From: an uncultured Verrucomicrobiae bacterium
GTDB lineage: Bacteria; Verrucomicrobiota; Verrucomicrobiia; Limisphaerales; Palsa-1400
DNA: 64,000 nt
Assembly (NCBI GenBank): GCA_963764165.1
Contig: CAVXRD010000002.1
Location: forward strand, 1,248,001-1,312,000
Direction of reading: 5' to 3'
Part shown: piece by piece, positions 880 through 55,744 of the stretch
Position numbering within the stretch: the stretch's first letter is position 1
How the letters are laid out: each line of letters opens with the position of its first letter
Notes under the pieces: generated by a model
Database searches by the model: none
The model's input: the letters and a program-made list of their open reading frames with translations, nothing else
Told to the model about the DNA's origin: nothing
Translations under genes and position numbers: made by a program

Positions 880-949
880 AAGGTAGGGACGCCTCGCCGA
901 GGCGTCCGGGGTGAGGCTTGATTCGCGCGCAAACCCGGACGCCTCGGCG
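880..949. repeat. GTAG-type REP pair (REPIN-like); right arm interrupted by IS1182 and completed at 2634-2649
   Basis: AAGGTAGGGACGCCTCGCCGAGGCGTCCGG ... CCGGACGCCTCGGCG|IS|GCGAGGCGTCCCTACC; same family at 16211, 36052 and 55396. Confidence 0.9.
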
Positions 950-2633
950 GAGACTGTCTCAAAACGTTTTAGTCTGGCCGATCTGGTTATATGGGCACCA
1001 ATAGGGGCTGTGGAAACGGGTGTCAACTTTTAGTTGTCAGAGCGTGGCTGGCGTCAGCGATGACGCCAAGCTTCCCTTTCCCTCCTTTTTTAGGCCGCCA
1101 TCGCCAAATTTCCTTCAACCGCGGCGGTTTTGACTTCCATTTTCGGCGTCTGGACCCGGGCCTGCCACTTTTTATAGAGGATTCGCAGGTTCAAGGTGGC
1201 GCATAACAAGGCCCATTGGGCTTGCACGGCTTCCAGACCCCAAACTGTCCAACGCCGAAAGCCGTCGTGTTGCTTGAGCTGCCCAAACCGGCGTTCGATG
1301 ATCTCTTTGCGCTTTCCATAAAGCGCGGCGGGTCCTGGCTCTTGCAGCCGGGCCCGCATGGCTTGCACCAGCGTGGTGTGCGGCCACACTTCGACTTGCC
1401 GCCCTTTGGGATCGCGGCTGCAGAGGGCGCGCACGGGACAGTCTCGGTGATGGCAGCGGAAGCGCTCAACGGTCTGGCCTTTCTTGGTGGTCTGGCCTTC
1501 GTGGTCCAGAAGGCGCTCTTGCGGGCAGGTGACGGTGTGGGCCGCCTCGTCATAATGAAAATGCTGCGTCGCGTAGGCGTTGTCGTGGGCTGGCTTGCCC
1601 TCCGCCGGCGGGGCCAGCACATTCATCTGCTGTTCCACGGCCGCTTTCAAGTCGGCCCCGCCCCCATAGCCGGCGTCGGCGGCGGTGAGGGTTGGAATGG
1701 CCGCCGGACCGAGGTTTTGCCTCGCTTCTTCAATCATGGGGACCAGCTGGCCGGCGTCGGTTTCCTGGCGGGTGGCTTGACAGGCGACCATGATGCCCTC
1801 CTGGCTGTCGGCCACCGCCTGGGCGTTGTAGGCAAAGCGGTTGGTGTCGCCGACTTTCATCCGGCGCGCCTCCGGTTCGGCTGGATGGTAATGGTGGCGC
1901 CCGTCGGCCTGCAGCTGGGCCAGGCCTTTTTTGATTTCCTCGCGCAGGGCCTGGCGCTGGGCCAACCCGGCGGGCAGCCGGCAGCCCGGTGCGCTGGAAT
2001 CCTGGTTCTCCGCCACGACTTTGAGCTCGATTTCCTCCAAGGCGCCATCCAGCTGGGCCAGGAGCTTCTCCATGTAAACCTTGCTCCAGCCCTGCGGCCC
2101 GCTGCAGGCGGCTTGAATCTTGGTGCCGTCCAACGCTTGCAAGGCAAATCCCACCGCCCCGGTGCGGAGGGCCAGCTGCACGGTTTGCTTGAAAACCTGG
2201 CGCAGGGCCTTTTTGTTTCCGTCCCAGAACCGCCAGAGGCTGTTGTGGTCGGGGGCGTTGAGCCCCGTCAGCCACAGCAGCGAGACATGCTCCGTGCAGG
2301 CGGTTTCCAGCTTGCGGGTGGAGCGAATGCGGTGGAAATAACCGTAAAGCCAAATCTTGAGCAGGAGGCTGGGGGCATAGGGCGGACGGCCTTCGGCGGC
2401 GGCGGGAATGACAAACCCAAGCTGGGGCAGATCCAACTGGTCGACAAATTCGCGCAGGAAGCGGGCGGGATGGTCGGCGGACACCCAGTCCTCCAGGGCG
2501 GGCGGGAGGAGGAACTGCTGTCCGTAATCAGGGGCAATCGGTTGAGCCATATTTGTTGAACGGCATTGTCAACTAAAGGCTCACATATTGTCAAATACAT
2601 TCCTCAAAAAACAGAAGTTTTGAGACAATCTCT
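950..2633 (-). mobile_element. IS1182-family insertion sequence
   Basis: Terminal IRs GAGACTGTCTCAAAAC (950) and GTTTTGAGACAATCTC (ends 2632), 15/16 match; flanked by duplicated GCG; single transposase gene. Confidence 0.9.
1090..2550 (-). CDS. IS1182-family DDE transposase
   Basis: Motifs QFLLPPALEDWV..HPARF, GRPPYAP, ALDGTKIQA, ADAGY, RKEIIERRFGQLK. Confidence 0.92.
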   Translation of the reverse strand: MAQPIAPDYGQQFLLPPALEDWVSADHPARFLREFVDQLDLPQLGFVIPAAAEGRPPYAPSLLLKIWLYGYFHRIRSTRKLETACTEHVSLLWLTGLNAPDHNSLWRFWDGNKKALRQVFKQTVQLALRTGAVGFALQALDGTKIQAACSGPQGWSKVYMEKLLAQLDGALEEIELKVVAENQDSSAPGCRLPAGLAQRQALREEIKKGLAQLQADGRHHYHPAEPEARRMKVGDTNRFAYNAQAVADSQEGIMVACQATRQETDAGQLVPMIEEARQNLGPAAIPTLTAADAGYGGGADLKAAVEQQMNVLAPPAEGKPAHDNAYATQHFHYDEAAHTVTCPQERLLDHEGQTTKKGQTVERFRCHHRDCPVRALCSRDPKGRQVEVWPHTTLVQAMRARLQEPGPAALYGKRKEIIERRFGQLKQHDGFRRWTVWGLEAVQAQWALLCATLNLRILYKKWQARVQTPKMEVKTAAVEGNLAMAA

Positions 2634-14867: not shown

Positions 14868-14917
14868 CAAATCTCACCAAATCTCACCAAATCTCACCAA
14901 ATCACACCTGTTTTTTG
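14868..14917 (+). repeat. 10-bp tandem array (CAAATCTCAC)x3 + CAAATCACAC-CTGTTTTTTG
   Basis: Read directly; a related inverted copy lies at 32684-32737. Confidence 0.9.
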
Positions 14918-15036
14918 TCTCATCGAAACAAAAGCCAAAGCGGTGCCTTGCGTGCAATTTTTCGATCACATTGTATTTTCCAACGTGAGATTAAAGGAGG
15001 GCGATCTCGCAGTCGCGAAGCGAGGTAGCAACGGTG

Positions 15037-15981
15037 TTAACTGGCAAGCTGGAAATTGGGATTTTTCAGCAATCGGTTCATAAGGAGGATAAGCTTTCGC
15101 ATGGCGGCGGTGAGGGCGACCTTTGGTTTTTTGCCGTTATTCCGCAATCGCAAATAGAACTCTTTGAGAATGCGGTCGCAGCGAACGGCGCTTAGGGCGG
15201 CCATGTAGAGGGCTCGGCGGATGCCGGCCCGGCCGCCGCCGATGTGGCGCTGGTCGGACTGTTGGCCGCTATCGCTGTTGTAAGGGGCCAGGCCAGCCAA
15301 GGCGGCGCAGGAGCCATCCTCGAGAGTGCCCAGTTCGGGCATTTCAGCCAGGACGCAAACGGCGGTGACGGAGCCGACGCCGGGGATGGTCTGCAGGCGC
15401 TGGGCTTTTTTCTTCAAGTCGGCGTCCTTGTCCATGAGCGAGGCAATTTCCCGCTCGCACTGGGCGATTTGTTTTTCCAGCAGAGCGATGATCTGGCGGG
15501 ACTGTTTTTGGGAAAAGCTGTCGGCATAATGTTCTGCGTGATTGCGTTCGACGACCAGCTGTTCAACCACTTGGCGGCGGCGCCTTGTCAGTTGAGTCAA
15601 TTGCTGCTGGGTGGGAGAGGCCTGGGGCGTGGGAGCGGGCTGGAGGGCGGCTCCGTAAGCGGAGAGCACGGCAGCATCGATGGGATCGGACTTGGCGCGC
15701 TTGCCTTTGGCTTTGGCGAAGTGACGGACCCGTCCGGCTTCGACCAGGCTCAGAGGGATGGCGGCTTCATGGAGAGCGGCCAGCACAGGCTGCTCGTAGC
15801 CGCCGGTGGCTTCGCAGACCACTTGGGCGCTTGGATGAGACTTTAAGAGGCCGATCAATTTTTGATGGCCTTTGGCGTCATTGGAGAGGGCATGGGATTG
15901 AGCGGCCAGGTGAAGCTGCAAAGAGGACTTGGCAACGTCGAGGCCGACGAAGAGAATGGAAGGCGAATTGGTCTGACTCAT
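15037..15981 (-). CDS. IS110 DEDD recombinase/transposase
   Basis: GLDVAK, CEATGGYE, KSDPIDA (DEDD), LQTIPGVG, GLAPYNSDSG (catalytic Ser region), ALTAAMRKL. Confidence 0.95.
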   Translation of the reverse strand: MSQTNSPSILFVGLDVAKSSLQLHLAAQSHALSNDAKGHQKLIGLLKSHPSAQVVCEATGGYEQPVLAALHEAAIPLSLVEAGRVRHFAKAKGKRAKSDPIDAAVLSAYGAALQPAPTPQASPTQQQLTQLTRRRRQVVEQLVVERNHAEHYADSFSQKQSRQIIALLEKQIAQCEREIASLMDKDADLKKKAQRLQTIPGVGSVTAVCVLAEMPELGTLEDGSCAALAGLAPYNSDSGQQSDQRHIGGGRAGIRRALYMAALSAVRCDRILKEFYLRLRNNGKKPKVALTAAMRKLILLMNRLLKNPNFQLAS

Positions 15982-16195
15982 ACTTGTAAAATTCGAGCCG
16001 CGTTGTTAGACGCGCTCAGGCAACGGTTCGAGTTTGGAACAATGGGCGGGAATGGAACACGCTACCTTACGGAGCTCGCTGCCGAGACAGCGACTTCAAG
16101 GGACGCACGTTCTCAAACCCGCCGCCGCCTCTGCGCCTGCAGGCGCAGAGGCGGCATCAACTTGGAGATCCGACATCGGATTACCAAGAAGAATA
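15975..16195 (-). ncRNA. predicted IS110 bridge RNA (ends approximate)
   Basis: Two 5' hairpins, then a target-binding loop (guides 16099-16106 and 16062-16068) and a donor-binding loop (guides 16020-16027 and 15983-15988) that match the target and donor. Confidence 0.85.
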
Positions 16196-16210
16196 AGAAG
16201 AAGATACAAG

Positions 16211-16286
16211 GGACGCCTCGCCGAGGCGTCCGGTTGCGCGTCAATGGCACCCCACGCCGGACGCCTCGGCGAGGCGTCCCTACCTT
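16211..16286. repeat. GTAG-type REP pair; the GGTAG foot of the left arm is displaced to 15024-15028 by IS110
   Basis: GGACGCCTCGCCGAGGCGTCCGG-spacer-CCGGACGCCTCGGCGAGGCGTCCCTACCTT. Confidence 0.92.
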
Positions 16287-36051: not shown

Positions 36052-36133
36052 AAGGCAGGGACGCCTCGCCGAGGCGTCAGGGGTGAAGCTTTGTTCACGC
36101 CCAACCGGACGCCTCGCCGAGGCATCCCTGCCT
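36052..36133. repeat. REP pair, GCAG variant of the main family
   Basis: AAGGCAGGGACGCCTCGCCGAGGCGTC...GGACGCCTCGCCGAGGCATCCCTGCCT. Confidence 0.88.
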
Positions 36134-55395: not shown

Positions 55396-55744
55396 AAGGT
55401 AGGGACGCCTCGCCGAGGCGTCCGGGGTGAGGCGTTGTTTCTGCGCAAGCAGGCAGCTTGTGACACAAATTTCTCCACGGAGCATTATTTCTCGCGGCTT
55501 CCGAAGCGCCGTAGGCGCGGCTTTGTAGAAAAGTCCCTAATACATACTAAAGCTCCGTCAGGAGCGACACTGGAGGCAATCAATCACGCTGGGCATGTGC
55601 CGCTCCTAACGGAGCTTGAAAACGTTACCGTGATCGTTTCTACAAAGGTGCCGCGCCTACGGCGCTTGGAGCCAACGCGGGGCGAAGAGTTTTGTTTCAA
55701 GCCCAAGCCTCGACCCGGACGCCTCGGCGAGGCGTCCTTACCTT
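55396..55744. repeat. main-family REP pair with an enlarged spacer containing a nested element
   Basis: Left arm 55396-55425; right arm 55715-55744. Confidence 0.88.
55504..55667. repeat. nested MITE-like palindrome
   Basis: Outer IR AAGCGCCGTAGGCGCGGC..TTTGTAGAAA; inner IR AAGCTCCGTCAGGAGCG/CGCTCCTAACGGAGCTT. Confidence 0.85.

What the first reader, a model, noticed from the sequence alone, without database searches (positions are those of the whole stretch)
15021..16230. IS110 boundaries: insertion in the GTAG foot of a REP with a duplicated CT core
Left junction GAGGT-AG-caacgg and right junction ataca-AG-GGACGCCTCG. Excision restores the GGTAGGGACGCCTCGCCGAGGCGTCC seen intact at 882 and 55398. 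The RTG matches the consensus AAGGTAG (7 nt) better than the occupied site (GAGGTAG, 6 nt). This suggests the element is tuned to the repeat family as a multi-copy, intergenic safe harbour. Unoccupied perfect guide matches lie at about 880-892, 16274-16286 and 55396-55408; copies at 36052 (GCAG) and 55732 (CCTTACC) are mismatched. REP targeting is known for IS621 in E. coli; a parallel in this lineage is inference.
Basis: partly seen in the sequence, partly recalled or inferred. Interest (0 to 1): 0.75.

Follow-up and report, generated by a model that had tools for sequence, protein, structure and literature searches.

The report
Bridge-RNA transposon scarring its repeat targets
An RNA-guided jumping gene of a known kind lands in a short repeat found hundreds of times in this genome, and dozens of empty repeat copies carry small marks exactly at its cut site, apparently left when it departed, although such elements are called scarless.

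Summary
Confirmed. An IS621-type IS110 (15027-16210, CT core) with a four-guide bridge RNA sits in the GTAG foot of a REP. The genome's only other copy is identical and sits at the same REP position, at a full AAGGTAG match. REP targeting by IS110 is long known.

New: 38 of 315 GTAG-footed REP arms carry lesions beginning right after the core; 0 of 127 GCAG arms do. Twelve read GGTAG-CAACG(G), the element's own end; 26 are 2-5-nt deletions. GGTAG-CA-ACG is exactly what the published 2-nt-offset bottom-strand exchange would leave after excision. The lesions arose independently, favour full RTG matches (27 of 38), and are absent from relative G011, which has this REP but no such element.

Best reading: excision footprints, recording at least 38 past visits against 2 present copies, each destroying a target. 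This bears on the open cut-versus-copy question.

Against: no excess in five IS621-bearing E. coli or other relatives (low power); a co-resident IS1182 also avoids GCAG copies; one genome, no reads. Two look-ups of this scan's notes showed no earlier report.

The parts
15027..16210 (-). IS110 element, 1184 bp including both CT cores; identical copy at G000:C1:326814-327997
15037..15981 (-). 314-aa DEDD/Tnp recombinase (D15, E57, D99, D102, S238 invariant in 8 aligned relatives)
15982..16208 (-). left non-coding end encoding the predicted bridge RNA
   Evidence: fold z -8.25; no Rfam match at gathering score
16124..16155 (.). perfect 32-nt palindrome, hairpin in the 5' part of the RNA
16099..16107 (-). 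left target guide UGCGUCCCU (8 of 9 match GGCGTCC-CT)
16062..16068 (-). right target guide AAGGUAG, followed by handshake dinucleotide CG
16020..16027 (-). left donor guide ACCGUUGC
15983..15988 (-). right donor guide UACAAG, followed by handshake dinucleotide UA
15027..15035 (-). left donor half ACCGTTG plus CT core (reads AG-CAACGGT on +; source of the CA footprint)
16209..16210 (-). CT core at the LT-RD junction
15022..15026 (+). GAGGT, outer part of the split REP foot (right target)
16211..16231 (+). REP hairpin GGACGCCTCG-C-CGAGGCGTCC (left target and its stem-loop)
16260..16286 (-). partner REP of the doublet, empty, full guide match
880..902 (+). empty REP, full guide match
55396..55418 (+). 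empty REP, full guide match
950..2632 (-). IS1182 inserted at the hairpin centre of the same REP family (second tenant of the repeat)

Best explanation
An active IS621-like bridge recombinase whose target loop is programmed to the GTAG foot of this genome's main REP, and which has cycled through many REP copies by true cut-out. Shown in sequence: ends, core, guides, two identical copies, and lesions in empty REPs. Inferred from IS621 work: excision exchanges the top strands at the core and the bottom strands 2 nt beyond it, so the rejoined chromosome holds a nick and a 2-nt mismatch carrying the donor letters CA. Copying the top strand restores the REP invisibly. Keeping the bottom strand fixes GGTAG-CA-ACG. 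Trimming the CA flap gives the 2-nt deletion. Realigning its C on the next G positions gives the 3-nt and 5-nt deletions. Marked REPs no longer match the left guide, so the element slowly uses up its landing sites.
For: 38 of 315 GTAG arms against 0 of 127 GCAG arms, p 2e-6. 11 of 12 double substitutions in GTAG linkers are the same GG>CA at target positions 6-7, the donor's letters; one further copy has 6 donor letters, CAACGG. The IS621 papers place the bottom-strand cut 2 nt 3' of the core with mismatches left for the host (PMC11208158 passages and sections 11, 13; PMC13626964 methods passage). 33 of 38 lesions begin with C; the 4-nt deletion, which cannot use the donor C, is absent. Lesions favour AAGGTAG (27 of 38 against 120 of 269, p 0.003); IS1182-occupied REPs do not (17 of 41 against 93 of 213). 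No clustering by flank or spacer: nearest neighbour of the same class 0 of 12 and 2 of 18. The mirror arm shows no recurrent indel in 198 GTAG copies. Three other GTAG-footed repeat families show 1 short linker in 102. G011 has 109 intact copies, 0 lesions and no homolog, against 231 and 25 here, p 1.5e-4. Insertion junctions are clean: donor half intact in 83 of 86 clade loci. The DBL handshake UA pairs with donor TG, not target CC, the arrangement that section 6 of PMC13626964 links to easier excision (my mapping).
Against: Not reproduced elsewhere. E. coli W and four strains with 16-24 IS621 places show no excess; one AT variant each in the four, and one in IS621-free BL21. In the CAACC-CT-GGGCT repeat, TG is 1 of 8 double substitutions in 401 genomes. 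G076 has 0 lesions in 6 empty copies. IS1182 also avoids GCAG copies (42 of 277 against 0 of 128; 3 GCAG ends by a looser count), so that contrast is not specific to IS110. The commonest class (3-nt deletion) is not enriched for AAGGTAG (9 of 18). CAACG could also come from a host deletion across the shared ACG. One assembly, no reads. A 2026 preprint finds IS621 excision mostly single-stranded copy-out in vitro. The TBL handshake CG is mixed.
Confidence: 0.72

Rival explanations
1. The lesions mark former IS110 sites, but the element was removed by host deletion or end-joining (microhomology AG..ACG between the two junctions, or Ku-type repair of a collapsed complex), not by completed recombinase excision.
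For: The two junctions share AG-nn-ACG, so any crossover in ACG gives CAACG. The genome encodes Ku. Copy-out is reported dominant for IS621 in vitro. CAACGG is not the simple 2-nt product.
Against: No partial remnants or orphan ends of the element in the genome. Lesions are confined to 0-6 nt beyond the core and always keep the foot side. No ligD was looked for.
Confidence: 0.15
2. The variants belong to REP biology (RAYT cleavage, IS1182 activity, or subfamilies amplified from single events) and match the IS110 end by chance.
For: 10 Y1 transposase matches in the genome. IS1182 shares the GTAG preference. Three doublets have both arms marked, which may be arm conversion.
Against: No Y1 gene has this REP within 1.5 kb. 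IS1182 inserts about 10 nt away at the hairpin centre, and 0 of 39 marked REPs carry it. No subfamily clustering. None in G011. The donor end is clade-wide, not REP-derived.
Confidence: 0.08
3. Systematic sequencing or assembly error beside hairpins.
For: Single assembly of 5 contigs; platform unknown; no reads of this strain were available.
Against: The same hairpin with a GCAG foot, the mirror arm and other GTAG hairpins are free of lesions. GG>CA and loss of GGA are not homopolymer errors. The four 1-nt deletions in the G run were left out of the count for this reason.
Confidence: 0.05

Closest known systems
IS621 (E. coli) bridge recombinase
   Same: DEDD plus Tnp domains, best PDB match 8wt6, E 6.8e-36; CT core; bridge RNA in the left end with LTG, RTG, LDG, RDG; same right-donor start CTTGTAT; inserts in the GTAG foot of a REP.
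   Different: Different REP and left donor; 7-nt natural RTG; long hairpin inside the target loop; DBL handshake pairs with donor; empty REPs carry footprints here but not in the five IS621-bearing E. coli scanned.
ISPpu10 and ISPpu9 (Pseudomonas putida)
   Same: IS110s targeting REPs with a duplicated CT; left target is the 3' arm of a target stem-loop (10.64898/2026.03.19.712850 abstract and section 7).
   Different: Other lineage and repeat; no footprints mentioned in the passages read.
REP/REPIN families with a GTAG foot
   Same: GTAG foot, GC-rich hairpin, inverted doublets, hundreds of mostly intergenic copies.
   Different: No cognate RAYT found beside copies; the family hosts two IS families at two fixed positions.

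Membership tests
IS110 family, IS621-type bridge recombinase | N-terminal DEDD domain PF01548 and C-terminal PF02371 with conserved serine | tested here: met
   74.9 and 69.2 bits over cut-offs; NF033542 208.7 bits against 140; residues invariant
IS110 family, IS621-type bridge recombinase | Short core at both ends, no terminal inverted repeats | tested here: met
   CT core at both ends of both copies; ends differ
IS110 family, IS621-type bridge recombinase | Structured left-end RNA with target and donor guides | tested here: met
   fold z -8.25; four guides located
IS110 family, IS621-type bridge recombinase | Target guides covary with insertion sites | tested here: met
   82 distinct target loops: left match 4.8 nt against 2.7 shuffled (n=60), right 6.4 against 3.1 (n=76); no shuffle of 2000 reached either
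IS110 family, IS621-type bridge recombinase | Circular intermediate with junction promoter | tested here: inconclusive
   TTGCCA-17 nt-TATCTT forms across the predicted junction (by eye); no junction in the assembly; no reads
IS110 family, IS621-type bridge recombinase | RNA expressed and guiding recombination | not testable with these tools
   no runs of this strain
IS110 family, IS621-type bridge recombinase | Scarless excision, as usually stated | tested here: inconclusive
   38 footprints suggest leaky repair; clean excisions leave no trace to count
GTAG-type REP | GTAG foot plus hairpin, high copy, extragenic, inverted doublets | tested here: met
   442 footed arms; 73 of 268 targets inside crude long ORFs against 85% of the genome; 132 doublets
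GTAG-type REP | Cognate RAYT flanked by the REP | tested here: not met
   none of 10 Y1 loci has the REP within 1.5 kb at up to 3 mismatches

The most novel reading that the evidence does not exclude
Empty REP copies form a readable fossil record of bridge-recombinase excision. The 2-nt heteroduplex predicted by cryo-EM is sometimes fixed in the chromosome, showing double-strand cut-out in nature, converting REP bases to transposon bases and immunising the site. An element with an excision-leaning handshake has spent at least 12% of its GTAG targets while keeping two copies.
Probability: 0.62. Interest if true: 0.8.

Novelty: new variant of a known kind. Interest (0 to 1): 0.68.

Why it matters
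A September 2026 preprint calls cut-and-paste versus copy-and-paste an open question for IS110, and editing papers describe these enzymes as scarless. Footprints at positions 6-7 would be natural evidence that rejoined chromosomes occur and that the host's handling of the 2-nt mismatch can leave donor bases or small deletions. That gives a way to count past transposition from one genome, a mechanism for REP decay, and a specific error class to look for in bridge editing of hosts unlike E. coli.

Tried and rejected
Sister-strain empty sites: none of 4 same-genus genomes holds a close homolog and only one has the REP (3 copies), so no orthologous empty site was obtained. Public runs share at most 0.07 of the words; laying them gave no junction-spanning contig among the rows shown, only a 393-nt piece with 3 differences inside the transposase in X1. 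All-species scan for double substitutions in the CAACC repeat: 120 matches, none in repeat context, i.e. chance. G007: target repeat too rare. G005: 5 of 11 empty CAACC-type copies have an extra C after the core, but G008 and G029 show C, T or G there, so it may be natural variation. G370 has one exact CA variant in that repeat, but its five IS ends have another right target and its left ends were not found. G080: 16 matches, 13 intact, 2 with C at the first position, 1 shortened; the pattern also catches the other arm, so unread. Five more REP-bearing relatives: 150 of 212 rows seen, no CAACG or CG linker. E. coli: 6 of 12 fetched records were scanned, with two pattern sets. Arms that have lost GTAG (..AAG-GGACG) were not counted, since the foot type cannot be assigned. 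Rfam: hairpin noise only. Literature: five searches found no report of such footprints in natural genomes; subscription papers and bioRxiv supplements were not visible, and PMC supplements were not opened.

Full report
1. Observation. The junctions are as described. The element is 15027-16210 on the minus strand, with a 314-aa IS110 recombinase at 15981-15037 whose best solved relative is IS621. Removing it and one AG restores the REP, which matches 11 times in the window against 1.5 by chance. The genome (7.0 Mb, 5 contigs) has one more copy, 100% identical, at the same REP position after AAGGT. Two unrelated IS110 matches exist. No other ends, MITEs or circle junction of this element were found. 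The host lineage was not named by any search.

2. Anatomy. The left end folds far better than shuffles (z -8.25) and holds LTG UGCGUCCCU, RTG AAGGUAG, LDG ACCGUUGC and RDG UACAAG. The 11-nt target occurs 268 times, 263 continuing as the REP; 117 sites match the full 13-mer. In 89 related loci (80 metagenomic, 8 from relatives, the window) the donor half ACCGTTG-CT is kept in 83 of 86 readable cases, while 82 distinct target loops covary with their flanks. By eye many flanks are other palindromic repeats. 35 of 401 genomes of the order carry a member at E 1e-60 or better. So the clade keeps its donor and is re-aimed at local repeats.

3. The new observation. I classed the linker between foot and hairpin in all 442 footed arms. 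GTAG arms (315): 252 intact, 17 single changes, 11 CAACG, 1 CAACGG, deletions of 1 nt (4), 2 nt (5), 3 nt (18), 4 nt (0), 5 nt (3), 4 other. GCAG arms (127): none of the donor or 2-5-nt deletion classes, although they have more single changes (19). The four 1-nt deletions were left out as possible run slippage, leaving 38 (39 of 316 with a looser anchor). None lies inside the window.

4. Why these point to the IS110. CAACG(G) is the element's end as it reads after the core. PMC11208158 (passages, sections 11 and 13) places the IS621 bottom-strand cut 2 nt past the core and suggests host repair of the mismatches. PMC13626964 (methods passage) expects products with an unligated bottom strand whose two nucleotides 3' of the core are mismatched. 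Applied here, excision gives GGTAG-CA-nick-ACGCCTCG, the observed sequence. Losing CA gives the 2-nt deletion. Pairing the donor C with the next available G gives the 3-nt and 5-nt deletions but not the 4-nt one, as observed. These repair steps are my inference. Lesions favour the full RTG match (27 of 38 against 120 of 269; donor class 10 of 12; 3-nt class only 9 of 18). They are scattered among REP subtypes. Controls without them: the mirror arm, three other GTAG repeat families (1 of 102; seven GCAG-C matches in one family were not examined), and G011 (0 against 109 intact), which has no homolog. One REP in G364 reads GGTAG-CA-GACG; no strong homolog was scored there. Insertion junctions are clean, so the marks more likely arise on exit. 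The DBL handshake pairs with the donor letters, which by section 6 of PMC13626964 should ease excision; 24 of 53 relatives share this dinucleotide, so it is not unique. The host has MutS1 and Ku; which one acts is unknown.

5. Against. IS1182, a second tenant of this REP, also avoids GCAG copies, so the foot contrast alone proves little; position, donor letters and RTG bias carry the argument. Replication failed or lacked power. E. coli W (155 intact arms) and four IS621-rich strains show no excess over IS621-free BL21. The CAACC repeat gave TG in 1 of 8 double changes. G076 gave 0 of 6. Host deletion across the shared ACG gives the same CAACG. The preprint 10.64898/2026.08.31.748434 (abstract, introduction, passages) finds mostly single-strand copy-out for IS621 in vitro; rare cut-out over long times is compatible with it. 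No reads of this strain were available.

6. Verdict. The element is a new member of a known kind (about 0.97). That the lesions mark former IS110 sites: about 0.87. That they are recombinase excision products: about 0.72. Five literature searches and passages of three editing papers and the ISPpu9 paper showed no report of such footprints in natural genomes; supplements were not read and junction data there may bear on this. Interest 0.68, nearly all from the footprints.

Noticed in passing
window 950-2632 and 45 other places in G000: An IS1182 (25 copies of 1683 bp, one of 1876 bp) and a 140-bp MITE with the same ends (20 copies) insert at the hairpin centre; 42 of 46 in this REP family. They avoid GCAG copies and never sit in a marked REP (0 of 39), which suggests they read the intact foot and stem.
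   Followed up: partly
G000:C1:326662-327997: One REP is doubly occupied: IS110 in the foot, MITE in the loop.
   Followed up: partly
G000:C1:128203/128300, C1:1026006/1026097, C4:122604/122764: Three doublets have both arms marked, two with the same lesion; possible conversion between arms.
   Followed up: no
L036-L115, L315-L351: The clade has been re-aimed at many repeat families while keeping one donor; a natural library of 82 guide pairs.
   Followed up: partly
L043: An element inserted 5 nt beyond what looks like the right end of a sister IS110.
   Followed up: no
L236-L247 (G005): 5 of 11 empty copies of the targeted CAACC repeat have an extra C right after the core.
   Followed up: partly
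window 14871-14903: Three tandem copies of a 10-nt unit (AAATCTCACC) just left of the element.
   Followed up: no
G000:C1:193716-194150 and C2:1739912-1740355: Two further, unrelated IS110-family genes; ends not defined.
   Followed up: no
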